A model generated the notes under the pieces. It was not told the DNA's origin. It ran no database searches and saw nothing but the letters and a program-made list of their open reading frames with translations. Below, piece after piece: positions 3,536 to 63,984 of a stretch of 64,000 bases of DNA. The stretch comes from Amoebophrya sp. A120 (taxonomy: Eukaryota; Protista; Dinoflagellata): assembly GCA_905178155.1 (NCBI GenBank), contig CAJINV010000004.1, forward strand, positions 876,629-940,628, written 5' to 3'. Numbering within the stretch: position 1 is the stretch's first letter; every line of letters begins with the position of its first letter. The translations under genes were made by a program, and so were the position numbers.

Positions 3536-6500
3536 CTAGTTCTCCCCCATTGACCAAAGCCTGTCGTTGGTTTTCAGGCAAACAAACAGCTCCGCCCAAT
3601 TTTCTTTCCACAACCCGCACTGCGCCTGCGTGTCCAGTCGCTGATTCAGTCCCATGTACTGCTCCCCGCGGGCGAGCGAAAACCCGAAAGGATCTTCTTT
3701 CGACTCAAACCGGGGCCAGTGGGGCAGCGGCGGCAGAAGTTCTGGGTGTAATATCAATGGTTCCTCATGCTTGCCGGTCTGCCCGTCCTTCGCGGTGGAC
3801 GTAAGAACGAGACCAGAAGTTCGTGTCTTCTTCCTTGTACTACTTTCATCCACTGATGAAAACCTCGTTGTGCTATCATCTTCGAGCCGCAACGCCGCAA
3901 AACCGAAGCTCCCGATAGAACTCCGCGAAGAGCCTTCAGCACACGAGTCCTCATCCGGAACAGCCGTGCTCGCGTTGCTAGCTATGGAAGCGTCAGGTTT
4001 GAAATCGTCAAAGTTGAAATGATTTGCCATGCATAAAATGCAAGGCATGAAGTGTCTGTCTTGCCGGGATGGCAAGTGAGGCCGAGCGTCAGCCAGTTTA
4101 GGGCTTGAAGTAGAGCTGCTAAAGGAGCATGACAAAAGCAGTCGTCTGTGCACAAACAGCATGACAAATTGAGTTCTGGTGCTCGGAAAATTTGTCATGC
4201 ACCGCTTGAAAATTGGGTATCCAACTGGTATCCGTTTTATGCATGGCAAATCATAGCAACTTTGTCGATTTCAAATAACCTGACGCTTCCATACTAGCGC
4301 GGGTGTTTGTCGTGGTGTAGTCGGCACCAGGGGACATCAGCAGTCCCGCTTTCTTTATTTTCCCAGTCGGTAAGCTCGTCGGAGGTGGAGCACCGCTACT
4401 GTTTTGCGCACAACGCCCTTGCTGCGCTAGTTCTGAAGGAGCAGCCAGCTTCTTCCCTTTGTTCGACGCTCTCGGCGAGATAGTTGTGGTTCCAGCAGGA
4501 GATGATTGGAATTGCACCTGATACCCGTGAAACGGGCTCGATGTTTCCGTTCCTGTTAACATCTTCCCCCCTGTCAGCTGCAAGGTTGGGGAGCAGGAAA
4601 TCTCACCTTCTTGTTCCAATCTGGCCACATCTTCCGGGGCTAGAAAGCGTTTCATCACCATCAGGCGATTCTTAACTTTCTGCTGCTCCACTACTTTCGA
4701 TACCGAGGACACGACCCGTGTTTTTTGCAGACGTCCCTGCACAGATTTTTCGACAGAAGCTGCTTCCTCCACTCCAGCACTCCGACTCATCCCCGATGGT
4801 GAAACCGCGCCGACAGTAAAAGAGGATTGGGATGGCTCTGTCGAGGTACTACTTTGTTCCGACATTGCCAATGTTTCTTTCAACCTGCGATATTCCTGCA
4901 AGAGCGCCGATTCCAGTTCTTTTTTTTTCATAAGAAACCCAAAATCTGTGAACAGCCCGTCGTTGTGGTTTACTGTTGTGGAAGAAGTTGTTGCAGCAGT
5001 TCCACCTCCCACCCTTCCTAGCTGTGCTGCGGCTTGTGGAATTGGTCTTTGCATTGGGCCTTCGTGTCGTGACTCGTCCAGTGGTCCACCAGCAGCAGTT
5101 CCGGCAGCTGCTGAAGTTCTTCCCAGTCCATTCGGATTCCCAAAAATCGCGAAGTTGGCCCAGTACCGCGCCATCTGACTCGCCAAGGTCGCCATCTCGT
5201 TTTTCTTCTTCATCGACACAGACACAGAGGTCTTACTGCCGATTCTAAGAACTCGGTCGTGGTCACCAGCACAGAATGTTGAACTAGAAGTTCTTTTCAC
5301 CTCTGTATGTTTCGCGAACAAAGGCCAACTTTCCCAGCCGTGCGGGACTAAAGGGAGATAATTTTCGTCGTCGTTATCGTCCACATACCCGTACTCGTAA
5401 ACTGGAATCCCCTTCTCCGCCAGAACGTCGCTCGCAAATTCCGTCGGACAGGTGTACTCCCAAGAGGTGAAGGCCCGCTCAGTGGCGAAAAACCACGACT
5501 TGTGCTTCTTGAAGGGGGACTTCTCGTCCGTAATCGGCAGCGTCGGCTTAGACTGCGATTTCGGGTGCGAGAGGTAATTGAAATAAGAAGTACTGGGTGA
5601 ACCAGCTTGTTCAATAACATCTTGGTCGTGGAGGTCATCGCCTTGTTCTGGTTCTCGATCATCCATCACAACATCCTGGTCTTGATGTAGTTCACCTCCA
5701 GCCGCGGCGGCCCCTGTTTGCTGTACTAAATCCAGATGGTCACTTGCTTCCCCAGCTGGTGCACCACGTCGACCAGCTGACGCAGCCACTCCATCCTCGC
5801 CTCCTCCTGCCTCCAACAGTTGAAAGGAGGAAGACCCTCGCCGCAGCAGCCGACCACTCGCCTGGCCGGCCCAGGAGTCTCGGATCCGGGACCACACCGC
5901 TTGGTAGGCACCCCGGCCGAACTCTCGCAGGTCGTTCAACAGATTCACAGCGCAACAGCCAGCACCTCCGTTCGGACCACTGGCGTTGAGGTTGTTGTAG
6001 AGAATTGAGAACGGCTGTACTAGCATTCCACCCTTGTTGGACGCAGCAGCAGCTGCGCGGTCCTGTTCCGCATCCCGAAGGGTATCACTTTCCGCGGGCG
6101 CGTACGCGTCCGCGAGCTGTTGACTGAAATCGAAGAACCAGGAATCTTGATCTTCGCGAGCATCAAGTTCCGGACGTTCTTCGTGTGTCCTCTTCGTAAA
6201 TCCGCCTTTGGCTGGAGGACTTGATGCCGATGTTGACCACGGTTCTAGGCTTTGAAAATTTCCTTGATTTCTTGCCACCTCGGTCCTCGCCGGTGAGGTC
6301 TTCCTTTTTTCAAGGACCTGATCCGCTTCCACCACACCTCCCGGCACGTAGAAGGCCCATTTCAGATACTTCAGGAACGCCTCGCGACTGGTCAAAAGCC
6401 TGCGCCAGCTCAGCGTTTTGCGTTTCGTTTTAGTTCCAGATTTGTTCTTGAAGCCATAATTTGGCTGCATGTTGGAAGAAACTACACCATCACGACCCAC

Positions 6501-9500
6501 GGTTGCGGTGGTCCCTTGTTCGACGTGTTCTTCATCTGGAGCTATCATCTGGACATCGCCGGACGAAGAAGAAGCTCGACTCGTGGTCGCAGTACCAGTC
6601 CCACTGCCCGTCCCATTGCTCGTTTCGTCTCCACCCGATCCGCCGCTCAAAGTACCACCTTCTGCGACGCTAGAAGACGCAGAGGAGGTCGACGTCGAGC
6701 GCTGCATCCCTGATGCTGTTCCATCGTGGCCTTGATGTTCCTCGCCGTCAATGTCCATGTTCAGAATACGATCGGCCTCGTGTTGCAGCAGCTGCTGCTG
6801 CTGTCCATATTCAGAATGCGCGGCTCCCGCGTCACTCCCACCTCCGGTTAGTGGTGGTGCAACCGTTACCGGCACCTCGACCTTTGCCTCTCCCATGAAG
6901 TCCAAGCCGTCATCCCGCGTGTAGCCGTGCAACACGGGTTTCTGTGCGAAGTGCACCCCGGCCGTGCCGTACTTCAAGATCTCGGGCATGGACGCGAGGA
7001 TCTGTTTTTTGTCCACAATCAAGCTCGAATCACAGCCGGAAAAGCAGGGCGACGGAACCGGGAAACCGGCCAGATCGTACTCGGACAGCGTTTTGTGTGT
7101 GTGCACCTGCTGTTTCAACCACGCAGCCATGCAAGTCTGCTTCTCGGAGTTCTTGCGAATATCATGGAACGACGAGGACGAGTTGTTTGTTCCAGCAGCT
7201 CGCGATGGCGGTCCACCTTTGCGGTCTTTGTCACTACTTTCACTTTCCTTTGCCAGTTGTAGATCCTGCCGGCTGTTCCCGAGTTTGCTTCTCTTCAGCG
7301 CAGGAACTTTTGGCGAGTTCGCGGCAGTGGGCGGTTTCGTCGTAATTCCACCACCTGGAGACAATGATCCAGAAAATTCTTGCTGGAGATGTTGCAAAGA
7401 TGGGTCTCGAAACAAGGGCAAACTGCCCGCAGCACGGCTCTGTGGCCACGCGGTGGCAGGTCCACCTCCCGCAGCAGTTCCGAGATGTCCAGCGCCAGCG
7501 CCCGCAGGAAGAACGCCGCTGCTACTAGTACCTCCAAGCTGCAAGCATTCCGGTTCCTGTTTCAAATATTTGGTCGCCTGCACATACAAACTTTCAAATT
7601 GGTCCTCTGCCACATCCAGCCCCGCCGTGCACCACCCGTTAAAGCCCCCACTACTCGCAATTACGTTGGAAAATAGGTCGAAGCTCTTCGGCGAGACAAA
7701 ATGCGCGGAGGCCATGCAAGCCCCCGAGGACTGCCCGAACAGCGTCACACGGGTCTTGTCCCCCCCGAAGTGGTGGATGTGTCGCTGAATCCACTGCAGG
7801 GCCAGGCGCGAATCCAGCAGAGACCAGTTGGCGTAGTCGGCGTCTTTCTCCTTCTGATGATACGGGTATGCTGTGCAAAAGTATCGTACTCGTATAAATG
7901 CTAATGCAAGTCTTGCATTACAAATCTTGTTCCTAAGGCAAATCTGCATTACAAATTTCTCATGCTGATGAAATTTGTAATGCATTTATACGAGTACGAT
8001 ACTTTTGCAGTTCATAACGGGTCGCCTGCTGCAACGGCACCAGTTGTAGTACCGCTGTACACAAGCCCAGTGCTGGCCGCGTGTCCTAGCGTTCCGGCGC
8101 GGATTTGCAACGAGACAAAGAGAAATTCCTCCCTCGAATACTGGAGGAGATTCTTCAAAAACTGCTTCCCGTCGGTTTGGCTCCCGTCCGCAAAACAAGA
8201 GCCCGCGAAGTACACGAAAACGGGCATTTTCTTCGTGTGCTGCGCTGAGGTAGAAGTACTCGTCGTGCTTGTCGCGGTTCCGCCAGCAGCAGGGGCTCCT
8301 TTGACGGGTGGCTGCAGAAGTTTTTGGTGCGGCGATGATGTCTGAGTCGCAGTAGTAGAAGACGTGCCCGCGGCGGAAGCTGTAGAAGATTGGACTGCAG
8401 TTCCAATCTTTGTTCCCTGCCCTTGTTGCTTCGCCTGCAGTTCCAACGCCCTCCTGACCGGCATAGTGATGTCGAGGCGCAGGCAATTTCGGCTCGAGGC
8501 CTGGTCCGGGTTCCGGTGCAACTCGCCGTTTTGGCACCCGGATCGAGACTCAATCGCGAAAAATCGAAAGTTGGAAGGGGAGGGTGGAGGTGGTTGTACG
8601 ACTGCCACAAATGACGATCCTTGCGCTGCAGGAGCTCCTGAGGACAGTGCGTGTTGGTCCTCCGGGCGGAAAGCGGACAATCTCATCGAAGTTGCGTCAT
8701 CTTTATCCTCTCCCTGCAGTTGCCCACTATTCGCGTTCTTCTTCATCGGCACTCGGCGCCGGGTGTTCTTCGGAAGCGAATTCGACGGCGGAGATGCAAC
8801 TTGTCGCTGCGTAGACACGACCGTGCTGGTTGCCGCTCCGGCACTCGCCGCCCCGGTACTAGCGGCTCCAGCAGGTGGCGCATCAGCTCCTGGGACCACA
8901 AAAGCTGCGGGCTGTGCCACAACTACCGGCTGTCCAAGCTGATCCGCCCTCGGCGGTTTCGGGGCCTCCCAGACCTCCGCCTGTCCGTACGCAATCCCCT
9001 TGAAAGTCATATGGGACTCTCAAACGTTACACTCTCAGCTGTTACATGAATTTGTCATGCTAAACCGACCGAAACCACTACACAACCTGTAAGGGCACCT
9101 CACCGCAGATGGTTCGGCCACCAGGTCGTGGAATCAGGCGGACCGAAGCCATCGCCATCACGCTCGGGCACATCATCCTACACGCCAACTTTACCTTACT
9201 TTCGCCACCAGTCCAACTTATCGCCAACATACGTTTAACGTTCGCCAACGATCCAACTTATAGCGCTCACAAACTGCGCAGGGACCGACCAGGCTAACTG
9301 CTATGAGGAAGCAGCAGCCTGCAGCTGGTCCCATGCGTACAAAGTAGATACTATTCGGAATCTTACGGACACCGCAGGCACGAAACCAGCCTGCGATGCG
9401 GTTTAGGAAATTCCGGTAAGCATATGGCAGAGCCTTTATCTTTTGAAAGCCAAGCACCTGAGAGCCAGGCAAAGGCTAGTGTAAAGGTTGCAGCTGAGAA

Positions 9501-11465
9501 TGAATCGACGGAGCTGCACATCTTGACCTCACGATCCAAACGAGGCGCGGACGTGACGGACGATGGAGCCGCTGCGCAGCTAACATAGAAGCGCAAAACG
9601 TCAATGCCAGGCCCATTGTCGATTCCACGGCGGGAAAGCTCCCGCGTCGTGGCCCACACCATCTCCCCCAGCGCTGCCAAGCCTTGAGCTCGCATCTATT
9701 GCGCGCCCCTTTCTCGCATCTATTGTGCTTGGGGAACAAGACTCGATTGAGCTTGTTGCTACTGGCTTGGGCGAGCTGGGGGATGAATTTGTCATGCAAA
9801 ACTACCTCAAGCCGCCAGATGATCAAGCGGCTACGCATGACAAATCTCCGAAGGGCTAAACAGGGCGTAAATCTGTGCCAGCTCTGTGATGCGAAAGCAG
9901 CAAGCTTGCCTCTTCGGCTATAGCTGTTCTTGCGTTACAAATTCATGCAACAGCTGAGAGCGTAACGTTTGAGAACGCCATAAGTCACCACCTGCGGGTC
10001 TGAGAACGGGTCGTCTACCACTACCTCGTCGCGTCGAGCGTGGCCCGCTACTTCTTCCCGCCCTTTTTGTTTCTCGAACTTCTTGTTGCTCGACGCCGGT
10101 AGTTCGGTCACGTAGGTCACTTTTCCGGACTTCTGCAGGGTGTTGCTGGATAAAAAATTCACCTTCGAAGATAAAGAAGAACTGCTCCCCGGTCGTCCAA
10201 CTCCCAAAGTAGGTGTACCAGCACTACCACTCGGCGAGTTGTAGAACAAAACCTTGTCGACTGAAATCGCGATTTGCTGCGGTATCGGAACCCTCTCTTT
10301 GTTACTTGTTTTCACCAGCGGAGCAAGTGCGTCGACGTGCAGAGTCACATGCGGTTGGTGATACTGCTCAGGACCTCCTGTAAACGAGTTCTGGTCTTGT
10401 ACTTGCAGCTCAGCTGTACCACTGATCATGTCTCCGCTGCTGGCGGGCGCGAGGGACCTGGCTCTTTCGTTTTCCATGCCCTTCCTCTCGTCCTCCCCAA
10501 CATTGCTGTCTTCTTGCAACTGGATGATTTTGAAATCGGCGCTATCCGCAAAGGAAATGTCGTCCTCGTCCACGACGGTTCCGTAGCGGCCGACAAGATT
10601 CGCGGGCGCGGATGGGACATCCCGCACCCGGACCAATTGGCCCGCGGTCCACGCTGTGAAAGTACAGATGTTCGATGAAATTTAAGTACACAAAAACAGG
10701 AGGCTTCGGCTTGCTTTTATTGCAAAGATCTCGTCCCAAGAAGTAACAAGCATCGCTGTGCTACAAGCTCGCAACTTAACAGGTCGCATCTATGTTCCTG
10801 CTTGTAGGTAGCTGGCGATTAGTGTCTCAACCGATCGCCACCGGAGCTTGACCGATCGCCAACGGAGCAGGCACAAAAGGGAAATCTAAAAAACAAAATC
10901 TACAAAACATCAAAAATAACATCAAGTACGGATGACACAGGTGTGAAACCCCGACCCTCCGATGCTTCCGTTGCAGCCGTTCCCTTCAAAGCCAATCCGG
11001 CAGCACATCCCCCCGGTGCCGCACGCGGCGCAGGGACCGTTTTCGTGGTCGCATATCCTGTGCAAAAGTATCGCACTCGTGCTAATTGCCTTTATGCATT
11101 ACAAATTCAATTTTTCATGCTGAGAAAATTTGCAATGCAGTTTGTACTAGTTCGATGCTTTTGCAATGCATATCACAGTGGTTCCAACAATCGTCCTCGC
11201 CGGGCTGGAGAACTATGGCTTCACCGCCCTCACCGCCGCCGCCCATGTTCCCGAAAATATTGCAGGCGTCGCCCCGACTGCTCCGGGTTCTGGTGAGGGC
11301 GGAAACAGATGAAGCACGATAGAGTATCGTCACCGTGAGGACCATGGCGCTCAGCATTTGTGCCATTTGTAGTCCTCTCTTGCATTTTTTTGCTCGCAAG
11401 ATCATCTTCGGTAGCTGCGATGACCAGGTGCGGAAAACGCCACCTGCACCAGGCAAAAATGACAT
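3536..11465 (-). CDS. Type-B carboxylesterase/cholinesterase-family protein with N-terminal hydrophobic segment and Cys-rich domain; 6 exons, ~2026 aa
   Basis: Exons approx 11465-11173, 11048-10930, 10653-9983, 9004-8017, 7861-4294, 3977-3536. Motifs: VTFKGIAY, NCLRLDITMP, PVFVYFAGSCF, NWSLLDSRLALQWIQRHIHHFGGDKTRVTLFGQSSG (nucleophile), GYTRDDG, PHGWE, YWANFAIFGNPN, HWPRF...QCGLW. One GT-AG intron (10929-10654) and four introners. Confidence 0.85.
3983..4293. mobile_element. Introner (family I, TATGGAAGCGTCAGG termini)
   Basis: ~55-60 bp imperfect terminal IR; flanking 5-bp DR ctagc. Removing 316 nt joins the two esterase ORF frames. Confidence 0.9.
7867..8016. mobile_element. Introner family A (TATnnnnTGCAAAAGTATCG)
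   Basis: IR termini; DR acggg. Removing 155 nt gives GDPYHQKEKDADYANWSLLD. Confidence 0.92.
9010..9982. mobile_element. Introner family D (TATGG..CTCAAACGTTAC) carrying a nested 722-bp insertion
   Basis: ~50-bp IR; DR agtca. Removing 978 nt gives DPQVVTFKGIAY. Ends align with the 216-bp copy at 24703-24918. Confidence 0.9.
9061..9782 (-). ncRNA. Putative retroposed structured RNA / SINE-like insertion with 15-bp TSD
   Basis: Flanked by atgaatttgtcatgc at 9046-9060 and 9783-9797. At least 6 stem-loop domains with G-U pairs favouring the minus strand; no convincing ORF. Confidence 0.6.
11054..11172. mobile_element. Introner family A
   Basis: TATCCTGTGCAAAAG / CTTTTGCAATGCATA; DR tcgca/tcaca. 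Removal joins CWNHCD-HENGPC. Confidence 0.88.
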
Positions 11466-11497
11466 GGATCTTGTGTGTTTGTTGTAACTCGGAAAGA

Positions 11498-19083: not shown

Positions 19084-20315
19084 TTTTACTGCGGTATCAA
19101 AGGAACAAAAGGAGGGCGTGATTTCTGGAAGGTTCAATGATTGTAATTTACTTACTTCTTAATCTTATATCAGTGAACTAGCAAGCTCAAGATCCAGCAT
19201 GAAGACAAGCTTTTCAACCTTAAAGAAATGTGTCGATAAAATTCTTTGTCTCTCTCTGAATAACCTTCCTCTTGCAAAATCCTCGTCCTGGTGGTGGTGT
19301 GCGTTTAGGTCTTATGTCAACCACACAAAACACTAAGAACATTGTCGAGAGCAAGCTCCGTGCGATCAAATTTCTCGGATTTATTGGGAGGACCAAGATT
19401 TGGATCTATACGTACAAAATGGATGGAGTTTTTGGTGGGATCAGGTGGATCAGACTTTTGCACTTTTCTTTTGATTTCTTCCACACTTGCAATCACTGCT
19501 TTGAACTACATGCAGTTTCGAGTCTGTCACAAGGATCTCATGTGAACACGTTCGGATTGGGATCTCAGCCGTGGTTTTCTTCCGTGATGATCTAGTTGAA
19601 CTTTTTGTGGATCGAAACAAACCAGAGCCTAAGATTTAAACTCTCTCAAACTCAATCCTATCGAAAACTCATGAAGAGTGAACTGGAACATCAAACATAC
19701 ACATACATAGTGATCTTTATACGATTTCGCTGTCCATGCCGTCGCCAAACGACGTTGCGCGGCCTTAGCGGTAAAAGTAAGTAGTGACGAGCACAACAAG
19801 ACGAGACTTTACATAGCAACGTCATGGCCCTGCGGCCTACACGGGTACAACGTCTAGTAGCAAGTGAAAGTATTCAGCGCAGTTCCATTTTGTGGGCGGA
19901 GCTTTGTTCATGTTCGTTTCTGGTCTTGATCACTACCTGTAACTACAGACGTTGACACTCACAGTTTCAAATATTTCTCAAGATCTTCAAGAATTACTTC
20001 AGCCATCATGCACGATCTCCAGTTCATTGCAGAATCACAGAAACCCAAAATCGCAGAAGTACAGTCCCACCGCTTGATCCACAATTGGTGCACGTGCGTG
20101 TCCCACTCGAGGACGCCCTACTTGGTGTAGGAGCGGCGTCACGCCTCCTTTGTGCGAAAGGAAGAGGGCGAACAAGCTTGCAATTGTCGCCACGTCGCGG
20201 CCAGGAATTCGTCTACAAACCTCCATCCCGGGCGGTACCACCGCCTACGACGCCTATCCCTATCTGCTGGCTCTTTCCAAGCATGGCAGGGAGAGCTGCG
20301 CCAACATATCACATG

Positions 20316-32235: not shown

Positions 32236-32390
32236 CAAAAGCAACAGTACAGGTACAGCAATAAAACGAATAATTTTTTTTACAGGATGGACGCAAATAG
32301 GCTGTAGTGAATCAGTGCTCAACCAGAGGGATGCTCACAGCACAACATACACTTCAGCCTATTTCTCTCTTTGCGACAGCGATCCTCCTC

Positions 32391-46700: not shown

Positions 46701-49700
46701 CATCAAAATATCAGCGTTGATCAGCTTGGCGCAGGCCAGCTGCATCTTCACCTTCCAGCCACCGGAGTAGGTGGTGATCGGGTTGCACATGTCCGCTGCA
46801 GCCTTCAGGTTGACGCCCTTGGCCTTGTTCTTGAACCCGATCAGGCCGAGCTCCGCTTCCGCGTCGGCCAGGGTGATCGGCGGAGACTTCTTGTACACGT
46901 TGTTCACGGTGTCCACGCAGAACTCCATTCCGTTCAAATCGATGTTGAACTTACCCAGCGGCCACTCCTTGCTCTCTATGCAACACAAATTTCTTGCCCT
47001 CGCACAGAACAGCACGACCCAGAAAAGAGAATGATGCAACGTCATCAATGATTCCTCTCTTCACGCGATGAGAACGACAGGGGAGATCTCGAACTTGTTC
47101 CGCGAACCTCTTTTAACATGCCTCTTCAGTGTACTATGAATCTACTGTGCTTCGTGTTCTATCTCGGGAACAAAATTTTCACTGTGGATACTCGGTTCTT
47201 CGAGCATGCGCTCCTCGACCTCGTGCTCGACGAAGATGGTAACCAACTCGTCGCGCTTCGGGAAGCCCTCAACCTTTTCCTTGGAGATGGCGCGCATCAG
47301 GGTGGTCTTACCGCAGTTGTTCGGTCCGAGCAGGGCGTAGAACTTGTTGCGCTTCAGGTGCAACTTGGTGTCACGGAGGAGGGTAAGCGTTCCGTAGGCG
47401 AGGGAGAAGCTGCCCTTGTAGAGATCCGGGGCCGGATCCTCATCGATGAACTCGATCTCCGTGTTCTTACCAGCGTTGGCAAGCTCGTTCATGATACCCT
47501 CCACGGCCTTGGGGTCGGACACGTACGGTCCGAGGACCTCCTTCCAGGCAGCGAGATCGTAGCTGTGTTGGTGGTGGAGAGAATGGTGGTTTAGGATTTT
47601 AGGAGCAATTAGGCGGGAAGAGACGATTTTAAAGTCATTCGAAATCGATTTGTTACTGCTGAAAGGGAAAAGACGAAACAGTACTTCGCACTCAACCCGC
47701 CGCACAAAGCATAATCAACATCGAACGATTGAAAGACAGTAATCTCGCTCTTAGGTGCAACAGTCCTGATCAAGAACTGCTAGTGAACAACAGTATACAG
47801 CTCCCATTCCGACAATCTTCAACGAATGATAAAATTAAAAAACAACATGTTTACCAGTTCGCCTTGTTCATGGAGTAGGAGACCTTCTGCAGGTAGACGG
47901 CGACGGATTCGTTCAAGAAGCCCAAAGAAGTGTGCTTGTTCGCGACTTCCTTGAAGTCCACCTCCGGCTTCGGGCCGACGGCGTGCAGCTTCTGGATGGT
48001 GGCCAGGCACTTCTCCGCCATCTCACGGCAGTCCGGGTCGGAGATCTCGGCGGCGCGCTTCTCCACGAGGGGAAGAATCTCCGGGAACAGCGGCTGACCC
48101 TCACGCGGGTCATCGACCAACTTACACCTGAGAAAGAGGGTTTGCTTCGAAATTTGAAATCAAAGATTGCGTGCAAAGCATCAATTTGCACTTTGCTAAT
48201 TTGCGGAAAGACGAAAATACTATCCGAAGAGATTGGCAATCTTGACTGTCACTACGTTAAAGAACCTTCACCCCACAACAAAAGGGGAGAAGGGGTGAAC
48301 GCGCAGTTGGTGGTTTGGCAGAAAAATTAGGAGGAGTTCCACGGAAATTTCGAAATTCCGCGCTCCGCTGGAATTCTGCACAAAGTGAAAGTCCTTACCT
48401 ATCTGCATGACAAGGAATCGAAAAAAAGGTGATGAAACAAACATATCTTAGAGTGTATTACAAGGGGGGGCTGGCACAGATGACAAAACCACAGATGAAC
48501 AGATGACACAGATGACAATTTTTGAGTGTCATGCAAATTTTGAGACACAGATGACAGATGACGCCACCACTCTCCGCCATTTTCCGTGTCGCTCGGCTTC
48601 CGCATCAATCAGAATCCGGTCGTGGGAATCCGAATTTTATCGGAGTCCGCCTGTGCGTTGCAAAAATCTAGGAGCTAGCTCATGCCTGTGCGTTGCAAAA
48701 AATCTAGGGTCGGTTCGTGCGTGTGAAAATGAAAATAGTCCGTAACACGCGGACAATAAGCGGGACGCTGGCAGAAGTGTGACGCTTTTCTTGGAAATAT
48801 TACTATGATGGGCCACAGAATCACGCCTGCCCTTCTATGCCTATGCATGGGCTGGCTTGCCCTTCTAGTTCTAAAGTCCTCTACTCCGCGCGCTTTTCTG
48901 TTCGAAGGGTCTTCTGGTTCTGGATAAAACTCCCGGGCGTCCACTCTGGGCTGCTGCTCGCCTATGAAAATACTACTACGTCATCTGTGTCTAATCAGTA
49001 TCCTGCAACTAGTTCTGTATTAGGGGCCGCCTTCCGCTTTCGGTTGTGATGATTTCGGGGTGCCGGTTTTTGATGTTCCAATTTTGTCATCTGTGTCCAC
49101 AGATGACAAAAGTTCCGCATTCGCTCAAAATGTTGAAATTTGTCATCTGTGTCATCTGTTTCATCTGTGTCATCTGTCATCTGTGTAGTAAAACAGTCTA
49201 ATATCTTTCTCGCAATCACTGGTTCTACTTGGATCACCACGAGAGCGCACATAAAACTAAAACAAGAACCGTATCATATTTATCAATACATGTTATCGAC
49301 GATGACGCAGCACCGACGCTGAGTGGCCTCGGACTTGGTGTTCAACCCACGCCAGAGCACCGGGGTGATGACCGCCAAGTGCGGAGCCTCGACGTTCTGC
49401 ACGAAGACGCACCCGGCGAGCTTCTCGACGCACTCCTCGACGTTCTTCAAAGACTCGTTCGCCTTGATGATGGTCGGGATAAAAGATTCCGCAACCACGG
49501 TCGCGCCCTCCTCGGAACCGATCAAATCCTTGTTGCCGCAGGTGAAGCACACGGTGTTCAAGGTGTCCTTGGCCTTGGCCTTCACTTCCTTCTTGATATC
49601 GTTCATCAGGAGTACAATGGGCTGGATGATCCACTCAATCTCGCGGGCGAAAGCCTTCGGGTGCTTCTTCGCGAACTTCTCAACCAGGGTGAGCGCAAGC

Positions 49701-51553: not shown

Positions 51554-54500
51554 CTAGGACAGTCCATTGTGTCTCAACAGCGCATCCACGGTTGGTTCCC
51601 GACCGCGAAATTCCTTGAACACCTCCAACGGCGCGACGCCTCCGCCGAGCCCCAGCACCGTATCTGCAAATTTTCGTCCAGTTTTTTCGATCTCCTTCTC
51701 GTTCTGCAGCCCAACTTCCTCGAACGCGGCGAAGCAGTCCGCGGACAAGACTTCCGCCCACTTGTAGCTGAAGTAGCCCGCTGCGTAGCCGCCCGCGAAG
51801 ATGTGCGCGAAGGAGCAGAGAAAGCGGTCGTAGGGGAGTAGTGGTAGGACGTCAAATTTGTCCGAGACCTTCTTGTCCACTTCCCACATGGTGTATGAGA
51901 GTGCACAAAAAGTTCATCTTCGCCTCCCCTTCTTCATTTGGCGTGCGAAACGCGATGTCTTTTCCTACGTTTCAAAAATTTTGCATGAGAGAAGTGAGAC
52001 CCACAAACAACGCCACGCTATGTTCGTTGTAGACTAAGATTTCTCACGCAGAGCATACACATTTCTATCCTAGCTCTCTCTGGTGTTGCTAGTTTTCCAT
52101 TCCAAAGGAGGGAGGCAAGGGGGTGTGGTTGTGCACTCTCATATGGTCTGTTCTGCCTTCTTCACCGGGTCGGACTTTTCTGCAGAGGAACCATCTCCAG
52201 CAGCAGTGTAGTACCTGGAGTGCAACTCTAAATCGACGAAGGAAAAGTGGAGCTGTCGCAGCATCATGCTTGCCGCCCGGTAGTTCTTGGCCTTCACCAG
52301 CTTCTGAAACAGCGCGTCCGGCAGTTTTTCCCCCGTTTCGTAGTGAATCGCCATGGAGTCCACGGTTGGCTTGTCGTAGCACCTATGGGGTCGCCAAAGT
52401 TGTATTTGCCTCAAGCTGTAAAAAAATTTCCGCGCGCCTTTTTTTGTATTTAATGCCCATCATGCTGCACGCGTATAGCCTCCCGCTATGTTGCGCACCT
52501 AATGAACTCGCTAGCTTATTCGCAGCGCTTCTCAGTGGCTAAAGACGGAGCTATCCGGCGCTGCTGCTCCACAGACTTGCCTTGGAGCGCCCGTGCAACC
52601 TGGAGGTGCTGCAGCAGGTTCTCTTGCAGTCCAGCCGCTAGACAATGGGTCTCAATCTGTGCAAGTCGGTCGGAGCCGCTGGCGCAAATGGAACCGGCCG
52701 CGGCTGCGCTCCCCCTTGTTTCTAATGTCGCGCAGCTGTGCGCGCGTGCACCGGCAGGCGCGCGCGCTTTTTGCCTTTGCGGCTTTTTCTTGAAAATGCG
52801 AAAAGCCCGAGAGCCTTTCGGGAGGGGTTCCGAGAGGGGTTCCGGGACCCCTTTTGGGGAGGGGTAGCACCATCGTGATTCGAAGAAAAAGCGGTAGGGT
52901 TTTTTTTTAGGGTTCCGGGCACCCCTGCGGCCCCCCCTTTTTGGAAGGGCTCCGGATAGGCCTTCGCGGCCAATATATGTGCGCGGCACCCGCTAGAGAC
53001 GACGACGCCAGGGCCTGAGTAGACATATCGGGGGGCGCTTGCAGCCTCACACCCTGACCCAGGCCATAGCGGCAACTAGCTTCACGGAGAGAGCAATCCG
53101 GAAAACAAAGCAAAACATTGCGGGCGCCCGGCGTTTTCTATGTGAAAACATCAGCCAACAAAGAACCCTCAACGCCCCGCCCTCCTCCACGTCAGTACTC
53201 ACCTACCTACTAGAGCTCTGCTGCTGACAAGCTAGCTAAAACAAACCGCGTTCAGGTCAGCCCTTCACTTGCGTGCACAGGTTTACTAGCTTTGCGACGC
53301 GAAAAAATGCGCGCAGAATTTTTTTGACGGTCTGAGGCAAATCGCCATGGAGTCCACGGTTGGTTTGTCGTAGCACCAATTTTCCATGAACTGCGACGGC
53401 TGCTCTACCGCGTCCCATTCAACGTTCCGGATTCCCGCCGCCATCCCCTCGGATTCCTTGGTCAGCATGTGCTGTAGCGCGTGGCCGAATTCGTGGAACA
53501 AGGTTTCGACCTCCCGGAAGTTCATCAACGACGGGATTTTTTTCTCGCCGCTCGTCACCGGCGGCGTTTATGGATTGCAAAAGTTGTACTATCCTCGCAT
53601 ACAGCGGCAACTGCGTTGCGAATTTTTCCAAGGACGACAATGAAGCTTTTTCAACATTTTGAAAATGCGCATTCAGGTCGAGTAAAAGCAGATCTGTCAA
53701 CACGCGGCGTGGCAGTTACTAGTACCAGTATGAGCACGAAACTTTTGCAATTATGCATACTGTCTGGTTGCACACCATGTGCGCGACGGGCAGTCGGATC
53801 TTCTTCTCTCCTTGCACCAGCTCCGGGTTCGCGGTCCTCCCGCACACCTCGTCCATCCACGCGCCGCCCTTTTTCGTTTCAGGCCGGGAAAACGGGTCGA
53901 GGTAGAAGTAGGAAACCACTTCATTGTCCTTGACTATCTCAAACACCATCACGTCCTCGTTCCAGAGGGAGACTCCGAGCTTTGTTTTTTCCTCGGCCGA
54001 CGCGATTTCCCGGATGGAAATCCCGAATAACTTGTTCGCCAGGTTCCACAGCCCCGATAGGACCTTTGGTAAGGGGATATCAACGGCAAAAGTTCTTGTA
54101 TCGCACGAGGGCGCAGTAGTAGCAATACTGTATCTAATAGATATGACTACAAACCTGCACCTGGTGATGTCTACTACAGGAAAAAATAAACAACTCAGCA
54201 ATTATGACAAGTTATTCCGCTTGTCGACATCATGCTAAAGAGCAAATGCAAATTTGTATATGCCACCAGTACTACCGCGAGGACACTTTCGCTTTTGCAA
54301 CGCGTAGGAAAAGTAGGGCTTCAGCTCCTCTTCGTTGAACTCGTATTTCATCTCTTTCATTCGTTCCGCGTAGTAGGGCACGTCCCACTGCATCAGCTTC
54401 TCGTCCTTCGGGAACGGCAGTTTTTCGTACTCCGTCTTCGCGAATTTCTCCAAGTCTTCCAGTTCCTTCACCGTATGCAATGCAAAAGCATCGTACTAGT

Positions 54501-57231
54501 ATAAATTGCATTACAGATTAGCCCAGCGTTACAAATTAAATTTGTAATGCTGATTTACCTTGAGAAAGAGATTTGTAATGCATAAATGCAATTACTTACT
54601 ACGGGTACGATACTTTTGCACAGGATACACCGCCGTCGCGTACGATTTGGACCGCAAATCCTCGATCAACTTGTTCGCGGACTCAAAGGTCGCCATCTTT
54701 TTTGCCATGGACACCTCGGCGTAATTCTTGTACCCAAGCAGCTCCGCGTTCTCCTGGCGCAGTTTCAGGATTTCCTCCATCAGCGGCGTGTTGTCCTTGA
54801 TTTTCCCCTCCTCGTCCTTGTCACATTGCACAACTCCCCCTCGTTCTCATTTCTCATGCAAAATACCAAATCCACGCTTTGCCTCCTGTCACTATTACTT
54901 ATGCATGACAAGTTCTGGTAGCCCGAATAGCACTACAATCCAGTGGAAATCTGTCATGCAAAACCGGCACCCTTGCTGATGCTTGTATTGCCGTTCATGC
55001 TATACAAATGAGGGGGAGGGGGAGTTGTGCACTGTCATAGTCCTTCAGATCCGTGCTGAACTCGCTCGCCCGCTTCAGATGCGCCTGGTACATCTTCTTC
55101 CGCAGCTCGCGGTCGGTGGAGTGCTGCATCACCGGCAAATACGACGGCATGTCCAGGGTGAACAGCCAGGGACCGTCTTCAGCGGTGGCAGACTCTTCCT
55201 TGCCTGGAGTTCGTTGTTGGGGATTTTTCTTTTCCGGTGTTTATTCTTGTTGATGCTGATCTTGAGTTGTTAACATGATCTTCGTCTCAAGTGATGAGGA
55301 TGCGGGAAAGAGTACATCAAAGGAGGTCTAGGTAGACGACATGATCAGCACCAACTTTTGCAGGTGCTGGCGCAACACAAGTTTGGATTTTTTTAATCTT
55401 TTTTTGCTACGACGAAAAACCAAAAAGCTCCTCTACAATTGATTACCTTTCGTTTTTGCTTGCTGAGCTCCGAGTTGCAGCGCTGAGGTTGGTAAGCCCG
55501 CGACTTCTTCCTGATATTCGTATTTTCATTTTGAAGAGAGCATTATTTAAGGTTTTACAGTATCCTTTCTGTCCCGTGCGGCGTGTCACCAGGAGCCGCA
55601 CGTCATCGTATTCATATTATTATTATTTTTAGAGCGTAAGAAATGATTCTCATTCTTCGCCAGATTGATGCATGAAAACACATGACAAGAGACGTAGAAA
55701 AATCGACATGCACATCCGCATGCTCATCCAAATTACATTTTATCGCATACAACTCAACGAAGTGGATATCAACATACCCTTTTCGTGAGTTTGACCGAGA
55801 ATGCCTTGGTTGCATCCTGCAAGTTGTTCGTGAATTTCGTTTTCAGTTCGCCCATCCTCTTTGTGTTCGCGTTATACTTGACTTTTTTCTCCCCGGTCAG
55901 CCCAACGCCCGACAATTTCGCCGCCAGCAGCTCGTGCTCCACGATCCGGGCCTGGCTTTTTGAGAAGGTTATCCTGAGTAAAAGCGTCCCCATAACAGAG
56001 TTAAGCTGGGAAATCTGCTAGACAAATCAACCAGATATGGTTGCTTCGCATGACAAGTTTGTCCTGGTAGTGTGATCCTGTTTAGCTAGTTCCGAAGCAT
56101 CACAGATCTAGCATATCATGCCGATAGTAGCATCACAAATTCCACAACACGACTAGAAAATGGCTCTCATGAGGCTCCGCATGAGAAACTTTTTTGGCAT
56201 GCAAATTTGCATGACAACTCTGGGGTGGGGACGTTTTTACTTAGGATAAAGGTTTTCTCCTTCTTATCCTGTTCCGACAGAAACTGCCAGGCCTTGTACA
56301 GTTCCTCGCTCTGCCCCATCCGGAGCCCGAATTCGATTACTTTCGGCTGCATCTTCTCCACGACCGCGCGCAGCGCGTCGGAGTCCTTCACCGATTTCAA
56401 GTGTTTCACCACGCCCCACGCCCGGGAGAGCTTGTCATCGAACTGCTCCACTTCTAGCGCAACCTCGGCGTAGGTGAGGTTGGGCGTGGGCTTCGCAAGC
56501 TCGTCCTTGATTTTCGTTTCCAGCTGCTCCAACGACTTCAAAGCGTGCTGCAGGTGCTCTTCGATGCCGGGTTCCACATGGTCCGGCGTCACCTCGCCAA
56601 ACGGCGGGAAGAGCTGGGACCCCGGGAAAAGCAGCGGGTTTTTGTGTGTCGCCCCGTCGCCCGCGGGTGGTAAAACCGGCGACATGGTCGTGCTCAGACT
56701 GCGGGAGGAGGAGGAGCTAGTACGGGTGGACTGAAGGTTGTTCTTCGCGCTAGTGGAAGCTGAGGAAGAACTACTGGATGTAGTAGCTCCGCTGCTTGCG
56801 CTTTGTCTATTCCCCGTTAGAATCCCCGTAGGACTAGTTGTACTGGAGTTACTAGTACCACAACCTGCGAAGAGAAAACAGATGCCGAGTAGAAAAGCGG
56901 AGAGACAGAAATAGCGCTTGACCGCACTGTAGTTTAAGCACTGCGCGGTTATGGATTTCAGAAAACTACCAAAGCTAGATGGATTGTTATTAAAAGAAGT
57001 GCTATCGCTGTTAAAGAGCAATTGGTGGAGCCTCGCGACCCTGGCCGCGCTACTTCTATGGCCGCCGAAGTCCGAGGTGGAACTTCGGTCGTCCGGGTCG
57101 TCGACCGGGGTGCCGAGGTCGATGTCCTCTAAAATAGTAGCTTGCTGGTCGTCTACAACTTCCGCTCGGTTTTTGCCCAGGATTCTCTGGTGGTAGTTAC
57201 TACTGCTTGATGACCCTAAAAAAGACGCCAT
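51554..57231 (-). CDS. prlC: Oligopeptidase A (peptidase M3A), 10 exons, ~939 aa, with N-terminal hydrophobic/Ser-rich extension
   Basis: [47 protein letters not shown] (HEXXH), [42 protein letters not shown]. Six introners and three GT-AG introns; exon lengths sum to 2820 nt. Confidence 0.93.
51894..52143. mobile_element. Introner family G (TATGA.AGTGCACAA)
   Basis: 15-bp perfect IR; DR tggtg/tggtc. Removing 255 nt gives EQTMWEVD. Confidence 0.88.
52346..53377. repeat. 38-bp exon duplication (52346-52383 / 53340-53377) bracketing a 994-nt intron
   Basis: aatcgccatggagtccacggttgg[c/t]ttgtcgtagcacc occurs twice, each copy encoding [12 protein letters not shown]. Confidence 0.92.
52404..53342. 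mobile_element. TIR element (ATTTGCCTCA... termini) inside the duplication-bounded intron
   Basis: ~40-bp imperfect TIR; GC-rich interior with ggggttccg repeats; no TSD seen. Confidence 0.7.
53569..53759. mobile_element. Eroded family-A introner
   Basis: tatggattgcaaaagt / acttttgcaattatgcata; DR decayed. Removing 196 nt gives CNQTPPV. Confidence 0.8.
54078..54306. mobile_element. Eroded family-A-like introner
   Basis: tatcaacggcaaaagt / cttttgcaacgcgta; flanks gggga/ggaaa. Removing 234 nt gives PYF[S/P]LPKVL. Confidence 0.78.
54474..54627. mobile_element. Introner family A
   Basis: DR caccg. Removing 159 nt gives TAVKELEDL. Confidence 0.92.
54819..55039. mobile_element. Introner family G (TGT left end)
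   Basis: tgcacaactccccctc IR; DR gtcct. Removing 226 nt gives [14 protein letters not shown]. Confidence 0.88.
55970..56248. mobile_element. Introner family F (TATCCT.AGTAAAA.CGTCCCC)
   Basis: DR aaggt. Removing 284 nt gives [12 protein letters not shown]. Confidence 0.9.
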
Positions 57232-59184: not shown

Positions 59185-62051
59185 TCATCTTCGCATCTCT
59201 GCCATTTCCCGCTGTTCTCGCATTGTTCGTGCGTGCAAAACCTTCGCGTCGGAGAGCAAGGAACAAGACCCAGCACCAGCTGCCGTAGTTGTACGAGGGC
59301 CACTGCCTCTATTTTTACTGTTCCCCGACAGAAGCGACGTCGAAGTAGAGGAGGTGGGTGCCAGTTGTGATTCATGACTATGCAGCAGCGTGTACAAGTT
59401 GCCTGAGGTAACCGCGAAGCTGTGTAAAACCTCGGCATCCTTCGCTTCCTGCCGCTGTTTCCGCTTCTGCTTCTCCTCTTCCTCTTTTTGCCTCCGCAAC
59501 CCGATGCGTGCTTTAATCGCGGCGAGATCGACGGTGGTGCCGAAATTGTTGATCATCTGGATAAAGTTGTAGCCCGGGATGCTCGGGGACAGAAGGGCTT
59601 TTGAGGCAGTAGTTCCATTTGTTGCGCCTGTTTCGGCGTCGACGTGGTCCTTGATCTGATTTATCAGCTCCTCTGAGGTGGAGCTCCTGTGAAGATCTCC
59701 AACAACTTCTACCGTCTCACAGCACGATGCAGCCGAAAAGTCTATTCTGCGCGCAGTCGTGAAGGCTCCTGCTTCATCTTCCGCAGGTGCTGTGTTGTGC
59801 CGGCTGGTGACGAGAAATGAGGAGTTCGTCTCTGATTGTTCTGGGACGAGAACTTGAGCTTCATCTTTCATCTGCCCACCCGACGTCGTGAAGGATTCGG
59901 AAGACGAATCAGAACGAGACTCTTCGTTTTTCGTCATTTTGATTTTCCACTTTCGGTAACTTCGTCGAATTTCCACGAGGTTGTACTGGTCTGCGAAATC
60001 GTCATTTGGTTCGCGGCGAAGTAAATGACGCTCGTGCATTTCCTCGGGCGCTCGCTTCGTTCCAACAAAACAAGAAGAAGAAGAAGAGGAACCACTCCTC
60101 ATCTGGCGCTTTATTTCTGCAGCTGCGTGGTCATCCACTTGTCGCGAAACCAGCTCGCTCCGTGGGTTGTACGCAGAAAGAACTACAGGCGTGCGCGACG
60201 AGGACAACATCATCCCATTCCCACCGCCACCATTCACAACTTCGTACACGCTGAGTTCGTGTTTCCTATGCTCGCTGGCCCGCGTGTTGTCCAAAACGCT
60301 CCTATGCATTGCAAGAAAGTATCGCACTCGTATAAATGCATTACAAATTTCCTCAGCATGAAAAACAAAATTTGTAATGCTGATTTGCCTTAGCAAGATG
60401 ATTTGTAATGCATAACTGCAATTATACGAGTACGATACTTTTGCACAGGATAGCTCCATGCGTAGTACAAAACGAAGAAGCAGTATCACGAGAAAGAAGT
60501 GTTACAGTTACACATTTGTTGGAGTTTCTGCATCACAAATTTTCTCTGTGTGGCAGAGAAAACTTGTAATGCGAAAATCATAAGGGAAAACAGCAAGGAA
60601 ACGAGGCTCCGAAGCATTTCCTGCATGAGGAAGGTTGTCTCAGTTGCCAGTTTTGCATGACAATGTGTAACTGTAACACTTTTTTCTTGTGATAAGCAGC
60701 CCGCGAGGGAGACCAGCACCCCGCGCATCTCCGACTTCGCCTCCGCGTCTTCCGTATCAAATGCAAAAATGTCTGGGTCTGGAAGATTGCAACTTGTCAT
60801 GCTGTCTTTAGATTCCACAAAAGTCTGTATTGCCTGACCGGCAAAAGGAGTCCAGTTTGTGCTACTCGGAGAGGGCATTTCTCATGCGGAATACGCACCA
60901 GAAAGCCCTCTCAAAATCTGTGATGCTAGGCCATGCATTACAGCCATAATGCGTCATGCAAATTATGCATGACAAACCTGGCACTCTTCCAGACCCAGAC
61001 ACTTTTGCAATTCATATTCCGCTGCGATAGCCGCTTCGCACGCTCGTCTCTGCTTCTCCTCAATGTTCTGGCTGCGGAGCAGGTCCTCCACGGACATGGT
61101 GGATCTGGCACCACTACTAGCATTTTTCCTCTCGGCCTGCTGTGCTGTGTTCGATGAATCATGATCCTGGTCCTGAAATGAACTAGTCCCACTTGTTCTT
61201 CCCCAAGAACTTCTACGCGACCTCGTGGCTCTTTGCTCGTTCTCCGAGCTCAGCATCTGCTTCTGGAATCTCTCTTCCTCGTCGAGCAGCTTCAACGCTT
61301 CCTGGTACTGTTTTTTCATCTCCACAAATGCTGCGGTCGTGCTTTGCTCGCTTCCGTTTTTGGTAGGATTTTTTGCGTGGTATTGTACCAGATCCGGATG
61401 CAGCTTTTTTGACTTCGCGAAGTACGCCTTTTTCAGCAGCCTGCGGTCGACTTTGTCCACGCCGAAACCCGTTTTCAGTAAAAACGCCAGTCGCTTCCGA
61501 CGCACCATAGCGGGCATGCTGTCGGTGCTGCCGGGCGAATTGTGGTGCTGCTGGTCATGCCGTGCTGCTGAAGCTGTAGTGAAGAAAACCCGCCGGAGGT
61601 CTGGTGCTCCTCGGTGTACTAGTCCTGTCCTTCCCCTGCTAGTTGTATCAGGTTCGTGCCGAAACACCTGGTGCTGAAGACCCGTACTGCTACTAGAGGA
61701 GGACGACGAGCATGTGCTTCTTGGAATTGCCCGCGGTAGAGAGGACGAGAGGCAACTGTAGCCCTGGAGGTGCTGTGCTGGAGCTGCCAAGAGCCCTGGT
61801 CGGAGCTGCACTACCTTCAGGCGGGTGGCAAAGGGGTTTCGGTGAATGTGCTGGGCAGTCGAGGTGCTGGGCGCGCTACGAAATAGTACACCAACCGCGA
61901 GGTGCTCGGACATGTGTGACTGGCAGTTGCTGGGTGTCCGTTTGCTCTGGAATACTTCCGATTCAGAGCAATTGCGATAATGTTGCCCTTTGACAGAGCT
62001 GTCAACCAGAGAGGTTGAGCTGCTCCGTCTGCGGCGCAAGATCGCCATCAT
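59185..62051 (-). CDS. J-domain (DnaJ-type) membrane protein, 4 exons, ~742 aa
   Basis: LKKAYFAKSKKLHPD...AFVEMKKQYQEAL. Spliced TM segment GVLVSLAGCFFVLYYAWSVL; Arg/Ser-rich N-terminus; three introners. Confidence 0.78.
60303..60452. mobile_element. Introner family A
   Basis: DR gctcc. Removing 155 nt is in frame. Confidence 0.92.
60484..60694. mobile_element. Introner family H (TATCAC.AGAAA.AAGTGTTACAGTTACACATT)
   Basis: 33-bp IR; DR agcag. Removing 216 nt is in frame. Confidence 0.92.
60755..61016. mobile_element. Introner family B
   Basis: DR ttccg. Removing 267 nt gives AAEDAEAKS. Confidence 0.92.
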
Positions 62052-63453: not shown

Positions 63454-63984
63454 TTATTGGGTCCCAAAGGGCCGCATCTGCGCAGCGAAATCCACAAATC
63501 CGAGTCGGCGGGACTGGCTGCCGGCGAACCGCTGCCAGAGCAACTCGATCTCCTTGGTCCGCACGTTCCGCTGCTCCAGGATGGCTTTTTGGAAGTCCAG
63601 GAAGGAGATGTATCCCTTGTCGTCCGACATCAGGAGGAAGGCGTCCAGCAGCGCGGTATATCCTGTGCAAAAGTATCGTACTAGTAGTAATCCTAATCGC
63701 AGTCATGCATTACAAATTCTCTTCTTAAGGTAAACCCGCATCACAAATTTTATTTCCCATGCTGAGAAAATTTGTCATGCGATTCATACTAGAACGATAT
63801 TTTTGCAGTTCATACGGTAGACAGCGCGTCCACGTCCATCATGAGCATTTTCCGGAACCGCTCCGTGTCCTCGGCCGCGTCGATTGCGAACTTCAAGTAC
63901 TGCTTGATTTTGTGCTTCTGGGTCAAGGTCAACCGGAACTCCGTGTCACGGTCGTCGCCGATCAGGTTGCAGCGGAAGGGCGTG
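63454..63984 (-). CDS. 3' end of an EF-hand-like protein gene (starts beyond the window)
   Basis: Spliced ...MDVDALSTALLDAFLLMSDDKGYISFLDFQKAI...EIELLWQRF...LGFVDFAAQMRPFGTQ*. Confidence 0.72.
63659..63814. mobile_element. Introner family A
   Basis: DR cggta. Removing 161 nt is in frame. Confidence 0.92.

What the first reader, a model, noticed from the sequence alone, without database searches (positions are those of the whole stretch)
4100..63790. Unrelated introner terminal families share one internal motif, GCAT(G/T/C)ACAA
Seen: about nine families with different IR sequences carry multiple copies of GCAT[GTC]ACAA(A) or its complement TT(T)GT[CAG]ATGC, for example in 3983-4293, 7867-8016, 21667-21931, 24251-24402, 24703-24918, 26249-26569, 54819-55039, 55970-56248 and 60484-60694. 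The copies are often arranged as inverted pairs. The motif is reduced or absent in eroded copies (46977, 54078). Inference: a single trans-acting factor, either a transposase binding subterminal sites (as in Mu/Tn7) or an RNA-excision factor, serves all families. 5-bp TSDs with T(A/G)T ends would fit an integrase-like DDE enzyme. No autonomous element is present in this window.
Basis: partly seen in the sequence, partly recalled or inferred. Interest (0 to 1): 0.75.

Follow-up and report, generated by a model that had tools for sequence, protein, structure and literature searches.

The report
Shared docking word in jumping introns
Many different intron-forming mobile elements in this marine parasite's genes carry the same short DNA word at regularly spaced positions, and copies without it are still spliced out, so it is likely a docking site for the still-unknown enzyme that moves them.

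Summary
The motif is real. GCAT(G/T/C)ACAA occurs 48 times in 6.0 kb of elements found without using it, against 5 times in the other 58 kb. A second assembly gives a similar contrast. Within all ten families it is conserved far more than the spacers (0.083 vs 0.278 substitutions). Its geometry is also constrained. Same-strand sites lie 31-33 bp apart in 8 of 10 families, and the first outward site lies about 40, 50 or 61 bp from the end. Both fit DNA helical turns (post hoc). Four motif-free elements are still excised from RNA, and facing copies do not covary, so an RNA-excision role is unlikely. Best reading: subterminal transposase-binding sites of a MITE superfamily, with splicing likely read from the ends. 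Corrections: the families are not unrelated (shared terminus, some spacer homology); one factor does not cover all (one family lacks the motif, one uses a variant); the ends are TAT, and TGT is a rare mutation. No transposase was found. The introners are published (Amoebophrya); I found no report of the motif.

The parts
3983..4293 (.). Family F element, 311 bp, 5-bp duplication; outward sites 50 and 53 bp from the ends, same-strand pair 32 bp apart
7867..8016 (.). Family A element, 150 bp, 4 sites, pair 31 bp apart
9010..9982 (.). Family D element enlarged to 973 bp by internal sequence; outward sites 51 bp from both ends
11054..11172 (.). Family A element with internal deletion, 119 bp
20307..21121 (.). 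Family G element, 815 bp, perfect duplication, no motif; excised from RNA as element plus 5 nt (820)
   Evidence: (one X6 contig)
21667..21931 (.). Family B element, 265 bp, 5 sites
21983..22142 (.). Family A element, 160 bp
22837..23122 (.). Family B element, 286 bp; spliced as 291 nt
23357..23508 (.). Family A element, 152 bp; spliced as 157 nt
24251..24402 (.). Family C element, 152 bp; spliced as 157 nt
24454..24610 (.). Family A element, 157 bp; spliced as 162 nt
24703..24918 (.). Family D element, 216 bp; spliced as 221 nt
25900..26151 (.). Family B element, 252 bp; spliced as 257 nt
26249..26569 (.). Family H element, 321 bp; spliced as 326 nt
44364..44514 (.). Family C element with 3 intact sites, duplication 3 of 5; spliced as 156 nt (301 raw reads)
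46977..47190 (.). Eroded element: ends kept, no interior site; spliced as 219 nt, not GT-AG in any register (179 raw reads)
51894..52143 (.). Partly eroded family E element, two weak sites
53569..53759 (.). Eroded family A copy, all four sites decayed, ends kept; excision inferred from exact contig length
54078..54306 (.). Eroded element, TAT/TAC ends, no site; excision inferred from exact contig length
54474..54627 (.). Family A element, 154 bp
54819..55039 (.). Family E element, 221 bp; its one TGT end is a copy-specific change (family consensus TAT)
55970..56248 (.). Family I element, 279 bp, 6-7 sites, pairs 30-33 bp apart
60303..60452 (.). Family A element, 150 bp
60484..60694 (.). Family J element, 211 bp; outward site 40 bp from the right end
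60755..61016 (.). Family B element, 262 bp
63659..63814 (.). Family A element, 156 bp

Best explanation
These are non-autonomous TAT...ATA DNA elements with 5-bp target duplications that sit in exons and are spliced out with one duplicate copy, and their repeated GCAT(G/T/C)ACAAAT word is likely the subterminal binding site of the transposase that moves them. Shown: the word's enrichment, its conservation against spacers, its fixed spacing, insertion in both orientations, and excision of copies that lack it. Inferred: several protomers of one transposase (likely an integrase-type DDE enzyme, from the TA ends and 5-bp duplication) bind sites on one face of the helix, 3 turns apart and about 4, 5 or 6 turns from the cut end. 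Only copies that keep this array would spawn new insertions, which would preserve it in otherwise diverged families. After insertion the array would be dispensable and decay, while the terminal ~15 nt and end-to-end hairpin would be kept for splicing. Families with a variant word or none would use sister enzymes.
For: Enrichment of about 90-110-fold in two data sets. Motif columns vary less than spacers in 10 of 10 families; 0.083 vs 0.278 in 219 perfect-duplication copies of the seven families that never match the fetch pattern. A 31-33 bp same-strand pair in 6 of 9 window families (null mean 0.95; 0 of 5,000; look-elsewhere 0 of 600) and in 8 of 10 consensuses, covering all five provisional lineages. 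First outward site clusters at 40-42, 47-53 and 60-61 bp (23 ends, R=0.62 at 10.5 bp, p=5e-5; 18 hand-collapsed values p=0.005). Motif-free elements excised: 46977 (179 reads vs 157-417 at seven canonical junctions of the same gene), G, 53569 and 54078 (predicted 2,754 nt equals an X6 contig of 2,754 nt). No covariation excess in 15 of 17 facing-site tests. Family A lies 4:4 and B 2:2 in the two orientations in minus-strand genes. A family with the same ends has switched all ten sites to CGATAACA. Precedent: transposase binding to subterminal repeats of a MITE (PMC1636448, abstract) and helical-pitch dependence of site spacing in a Tn7-like element (PMC10201428, passages).
Against: No transposase or autonomous element was found in the window or, by a crude recalled-motif regex, in about 585 kb of related loci. 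Farhat et al. report no transposase in the TAT-type genome and argue against general transposase mobilisation (PMC7789003, section 16). Families A and C have inward-pointing outer sites, unlike the others, and D and E lack the 31-33 bp pair. The nearest site is 34-60 bp from the end, not close to it as in Tn7; my test of the terminus as a degenerate site failed (p=0.4). The age test was inconclusive: motif changes rose only from 0.043 to 0.057 between copies with intact and mutated duplications, and C2 is as conserved (0.019) as the terminal bases. Both spacing tests were post hoc, and the families are partly related.
Confidence: 0.62

Rival explanations
1. The word is bound on DNA by a host protein (an architectural or transcription factor, or a domesticated transposase) that helps assemble the transposition complex, as IHF does for some Tn7-like elements.
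For: Same DNA-level evidence. No transposase seen here or in the published search (PMC7789003). Sites lie 34-60 bp inside the ends. Host-factor precedent in PMC10201428.
Against: The word is nearly absent from spacers and canonical introns (1 hit in 14.9 kb), unlike a general host factor site. Related words switch as a block in other element families (CGATAACA in L069; AGATGACA in the 6-bp-duplication element), which fits co-evolving element-encoded binding domains.
Confidence: 0.17
2. The word acts after insertion, as an optional DNA or RNA enhancer of excision efficiency or as a chromatin mark, and old copies have compensated for its loss.
For: Motif columns stay well conserved even in copies with mutated duplications. 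Elements carry both strands of the word, so it is present in the transcript in either orientation.
Against: The motif-free junction at 46977 has read support in the range of canonical neighbours. Family G never had the word and is excised precisely. Phasing to the DNA helix has no clear role in RNA.
Confidence: 0.1
3. The word is the recognition signal of an RNA-excision factor required for these non-canonical introns.
For: Present in 312 of 334 elements that do not match the fetch pattern; these introns lack GT-AG and U1 is reported missing (PMC7789003).
Against: Four elements with no interior site are excised as element plus 5 nt. No covariation between facing copies. Eroded copies keep the ends and a terminal stem, not the word.
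Confidence: 0.05
4. The word is a functionless relic of common ancestry and fold-back duplication.
For: All families share a terminal signature; A-C, F-H, I-E and I-H show spacer homology.
Against: About three-fold lower substitution than spacers in every family. Same spacing in B, J and K, which show no masked homology to the others.
Confidence: 0.04

Closest known systems
Amoebophrya introner elements (Farhat et al. 2021, PMC7789003; Gozashti et al. 2025, PMC12130899)
   Same: Non-canonical introns with terminal inverted repeats and short direct repeats. Ends of the type described for one strain (TAT, seven variable bases, a run of A). Family lengths near 107, 149, 209, 252-262, 278, 305, 321 and 810 bp appear in the 2025 table, most with superfamily 'Unknown'. 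That table files one 808-810 bp family as Ginger with '5-bp TSD, TA/TA termini'.
   Different: In the text and supplements I could search, neither paper reports an internal shared word, its spacing, or that splicing does not need it. The 2021 paper treats families as separate and argues against transposase mobilisation. The published Ginger-like family resembles, by size only, the motif-free family G rather than the motif-bearing ones.
MITEs with subterminal transposase-binding repeats (Emigrant/Lemi1, PMC1636448)
   Same: Short non-coding elements with inverted ends, duplications and repeated interior motifs.
   Different: There binding was shown and the partner is known (pogo-like). Here binding is inferred, and one word spans many end types.
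Tn7-like and Mu ends (PMC10201428 for Tn7-like; Mu recalled)
   Same: Arrays of repeated sites whose spacing follows the helical pitch; 5-bp duplication (recalled).
   Different: Ends are TA rather than TG; first site is 34-60 bp inside rather than about 8 bp; sites point both ways; the elements are eukaryotic and spliced.
IS3EU/GingerRoot, Ginger2/TDD, IS481EU (PMC10045372, PMC6839031, PMC2836005)
   Same: TA...TA ends as in IS3EU/GingerRoot; 5-bp duplication as in TDD-4/5; TNT...AYA ends as in IS481EU.
   Different: No group combines both features: IS3EU/GingerRoot make 6 bp, Ginger2 ends TGTNR and prefers RTATAY targets, IS481EU makes about 4, 15 or 25 bp.

Membership tests
Amoebophrya introner elements | Non-GT-AG intron bounded by inverted repeats and a short direct repeat, removed from RNA | tested here: met
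   Element-plus-5-nt joints for 8 of 12 elements in 8500-27000 and 2 in 44000-50500
Amoebophrya introner elements | Ends start TAT, seven variable bases, then three or more A | tested here: met
   52 window ends: T 51, A 51, T 51, G/C 52; A at positions 11-14 in 37-45
MITE | Inverted ends, fixed duplication, no coding capacity, many copies | tested here: met
   350 of 460 elements with exact 5-bp duplication; 635 full-length copies of 10 families; no Pfam domain in G
MITE | Mobilised in trans by a cognate transposase | not testable with these tools
   No whole genome held; no transposase in the sequence held
IS3EU/GingerRoot | TA...TA termini | tested here: met
   TAT at 909 of 920 ends; definition from PMC10045372 and PMC6839031
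IS3EU/GingerRoot | 6-bp duplication | tested here: not met
   5 bp in a scan open to 3-8 bp and in RNA skips of element plus 5
IS3EU/GingerRoot | Integrase-related DDE transposase | not testable with these tools
   No autonomous element in hand
Ginger2/TDD | TGTNR termini | tested here: not met
   TGT at 10 of 920 ends
Ginger2/TDD | 4-5 bp duplication | tested here: met
Ginger2/TDD | AT-rich RTATAY target preference | tested here: not met
   350 target sites show no preference; duplication GC 0.56
IS481EU | Duplications of about 4, 15 or 25 bp | tested here: not met
   5 bp; longer duplications were not searched systematically
Tn7/Mu-type ends | Repeated internal sites with helically phased spacing | tested here: met
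   (post hoc)
Tn7/Mu-type ends | TG...CA ends with the first site next to the end | tested here: not met
   TAT ends; first site 34-60 bp inside; terminus not a significant match to the word
Tn7/Mu-type ends | Transposase binds the repeats | not testable with these tools
   Needs the protein and a binding assay

The most novel reading that the evidence does not exclude
Tens of thousands of non-canonical introns in this parasite carry a two-part code: a helically phased array of DNA sites for jumping and an end-only signal for splicing. The array is read by one host-kept (domesticated) integrase-like protein with no autonomous element left, so the host genome itself runs an intron-making machine that has served at least five diverged element lineages.
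Probability: 0.15. Interest if true: 0.88.

Novelty: new variant of a known kind. Interest (0 to 1): 0.64.

Why it matters
How these introns spread and how they are spliced without GT-AG are both stated as open in PMC7789003, which argues against transposase mobilisation. The motif gives a concrete bait for finding the mobilising protein and a sequence signature for finding the autonomous element. It merges many 'unknown' families into one superfamily. It also narrows the splicing signal to the terminal ~15 nt and hairpin, because copies stripped of the interior word still splice. Both questions become directly testable.

Tried and rejected
Terminus as a degenerate copy of the word: best match inward at position 4, but 2,003 of 5,000 column shuffles did as well; rejected. 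Eroded copies rescued by becoming GT-AG introns: the 46977 junction is not GT-AG in any allowed register; rejected for that copy. RNA stem between facing copies: 15 of 17 tests without excess, 2 nominal (p 0.012 and 0.015, both family A). Age test using duplication mismatches: inconclusive. Open-frame test after in-silico excision: weak, since other offsets often leave a frame open too. Search for the transposase: no whole genome; record handles not held; Pfam negative in the window; long elements are enlarged by unrelated inserts, with no long frame; regex negative in the loci. The RNase H-like frame at 13127-15223 reads as a retrotransposon remnant, not a DDE enzyme (PDB search blank; atlas gave no answer). 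Viral and prokaryotic collections: 0 hits for the inverted pair; 26, 120 and 2 hits for other patterns, mostly spaced 30 or 33 bp as in coding repeats, none inside a TAT...ATA element. Estuary run X9 held only short element fragments and X12 laid no reads; not used. Earlier findings of this scan: three look-ups, nothing.

Full report
Setting. The window is eukaryotic, with genes on the minus strand (Pfam: carboxylesterase, Rpb6, mitochondrial carrier, GCD14, SF3A2, eEF3-like, M3 peptidase). Its inserts match the introner elements described for the parasitic dinoflagellate Amoebophrya: non-canonical introns with inverted and direct repeats, in one strain starting TAT, seven variable bases and a run of A (PMC7789003, passages and section 16). 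No whole genome was held. Family letters A-K are my own labels.

Observation. A search using only ends, a 5-bp duplication (one mismatch allowed) and an inverted-repeat score gave 25 rows scoring 34 or more; three were alternative ends of the same elements, leaving 22 (best null score 26, two shuffles). They include all nine named examples at the stated coordinates. An earlier scan open to duplications of 3-8 bp gave 5 bp for these elements. Exact GCAT[GTC]ACAA occurs 48 times in their 6,012 bp and 5 times in the other 57,988 bp; shuffles give 0.40 on average, 3 at most. Ten canonical introns (3,611 bp) hold one hit and nine non-coding spacers (11,239 bp) none. The matrix is (T/A)GCAT(G/T/C)ACAAAT(T), with GCATGAGAAA and GCAA- variants.

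Replication. One metagenome scan with a three-site pattern returned 150 loci, about 585 kb unique, all from one assembly of the same or a very close organism. With the window they yield 460 elements, 350 with an exact 5-bp duplication, in 38 clusters. The word occurs 1,573 times in 171 kb of elements and 34 times in 416 kb outside. That figure is inflated by how the loci were fetched and masked. After dropping elements that match the fetch pattern and two false calls, 312 of 334 still carry an exact copy, 319 carry two or more matrix sites and 5 carry none.

Conservation. Among 635 full-length copies of ten families, motif columns vary less than spacers in all ten. In the seven families with no copy matching the fetch pattern, 219 copies with intact duplications show 0.083 substitutions per motif site against 0.278 per spacer site.

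Are the families unrelated? Not fully. All share a terminus: of 52 window ends, 51 have T, 51 A, 51 T and all 52 G or C at position 4, followed by A-rich positions 11-14; position 5 was T in 0 of 623 ends of the unselected families. With motif sites and ends masked, 4 of 45 consensus pairs beat all 300 shuffles (A-C, F-H, I-E, I-H) and two more were borderline (F-E, E-D). That suggests about five lineages: A/C, D/E/F/H/I, B, J and K. The grouping is provisional.

Geometry. Same-strand sites 31-33 bp apart occur in 6 of 9 window families (null mean 0.95; 0 of 5,000 random placements; 0 of 600 for the best bin anywhere). They occur in 8 of 10 consensuses, in all five lineages, but not in D or E. 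Three helical turns are 31.5 bp. The first outward-pointing site within 70 bp of an end lies at 40-42 (8 ends), 47-53 (10), 60-61 (3), 66 and 68 bp. This is periodic at about 10-10.5 bp (R=0.62, p=5e-5; p=0.005 on 18 values that I collapsed by hand). A and C are outside this set because their outer sites point inward. Both tests were devised after seeing the maps. In a Tn7-like system, site spacing affects transposition with a period of about 10 bp (PMC10201428, passages).

DNA or RNA? Raw RNA reads (X11) skip the motif-bearing copy 44364-44514 as 156 nt (301 reads) and the motif-free copy 46977-47190 as 219 nt (179 reads); seven canonical junctions of the same gene have 157-417 reads. Both skips equal the element plus one duplicate copy, and neither is GT-AG. 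For the peptidase gene, removing nine inserts, including motif-free 53569-53759 and 54078-54306, predicts 2,754 nt with an 817-codon frame; an X6 contig spanning the gene is 2,754 nt. Those two junctions were not listed individually, so this is inferred from length. A second lay showed element-plus-5 joints for 8 of the 12 elements in 8500-27000, including motif-free G (820 nt, one contig); two elements had no coverage and two were not listed. X3 and X6 are only guessed to be RNA, but they also skip GT-AG introns. Eroded copies keep their first 15 nt and a predicted terminal stem. The variable fifth base does not covary between facing copies in 15 of 17 tests. Families A and B lie in both orientations in their genes. 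The word is therefore not required for excision.

One factor? Not for all. G (20307-21121) has the same ends and duplication but no word. An element in L069 (8103-8623) has the same ends and duplication and ten copies of CGATAACA instead. A separate element with a 6-bp duplication at 48449-49199 has ten copies of AGATGACA. The shared AT-N-ACA core with block-wise changes upstream suggests related binding domains that co-evolve with their elements; this is inference.

Mechanism. Shown: enrichment, conservation, spacing, both orientations, excision without the word. Inferred: a transposase binds the array on one face of the DNA, and only copies with intact arrays found new insertions. The staggered cut gives the 5-bp duplication, without target preference. 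Once inserted, an element is tolerated because element plus one duplicate is spliced out using the ends, and the array then decays. The enzyme is likely integrase-type, but no known group has both TA ends and 5 bp: IS3EU and GingerRoot have TA ends and 6 bp, TDD has 5 bp but TGT ends (PMC10045372, PMC6839031, PMC2836005, passages). Against this reading: no transposase was found, the 2021 paper found none in the TAT-type genome, the sites lie well inside the ends, and my age test could not show that the word is unprotected after insertion.

Novelty. The elements are published. The 2025 table lists most families of the TAT-type strain without a superfamily and one 808-810 bp family as Ginger with a 5-bp duplication and TA ends (56 of 58 rows read). 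G matches that size class, and its weak Rrp40_N hit is also listed for the table's 811-bp family, so the only published integrase link may concern the motif-free type. The motif string was not in the supplement text of either paper (files 13 and 14 of the 2025 paper not searched; figures, including the 2021 logos, cannot be seen). Searches for introner + dinoflagellate + subterminal (0 papers), Amoebophrya + introner (12 of 14 listed) and two related queries showed no report of it. Roy et al. 2023 (Curr Biol) was seen only as a reference and may bear on this. PMC9860276 and PMC11282704 were read as passages and PMC1636448 as abstract.

Verdict. A real and apparently unreported cis-element. It is best read as a phased array of transposase-binding sites shared by a diversified MITE superfamily that doubles as introns. 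It is a new variant of a known kind, and it makes the missing mobiliser and the minimal splice signal testable.

Noticed in passing
window 48449-49199; L062:1741-2493: A separate 751-bp non-coding element with TAG...CTA ends and a 6-bp duplication in both copies (97.7% identical), the IS3EU/GingerRoot signature. It has ten subterminal AGATGACA repeats sharing the core of the introner word. It lies in a canonical intron in the window and inside an introner in L062.
   Followed up: partly
L069:8103-8623: A 521-bp TAT...ATA element with a 5-bp duplication whose ten internal sites read CGATAACA; its ends resemble family J by eye.
   Followed up: partly
window 52347-53378: A 957-bp repeat with only one TAT end and a duplication of about 38 nt of exon; total transcript length implies that it is removed as 994 nt. 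Possibly a one-ended insertion.
   Followed up: partly
window 13127-15223 (minus): A 699-codon frame with an RNase H-like region (Pfam E=0.04) and a CCHC-like finger, read by eye as a 5'-truncated non-LTR retrotransposon; no RNA coverage in the runs laid.
   Followed up: partly
L004:2204-2726: A TAT...ATA element with an 8-bp duplication and no motif, nested in a family B introner; likely another superfamily.
   Followed up: no
all element ends: Positions 4-7 often differ between the two ends of one element (position 7 matches in 6 of 23) while flanking positions match, giving an internal loop next to the terminal TAT pair; position 5 is almost never T. This may be part of the splice signal.
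   Followed up: partly
window 24454-24610: This family A copy has its terminal seven bases swapped relative to copies 54474 and 60303 with the same interior orientation, as an inversion between the repeats would give.
   Followed up: no
window 45146 and 50445 (run X11): The same 22-base loose end follows both places in 80-84 reads; probably a library adapter, not checked.
   Followed up: no
window 44083-44097 (run X11): 53 of 497 reads carry one extra A next to the first canonical junction of the eEF3-like gene; alignment artefact or variant, not checked.
   Followed up: no
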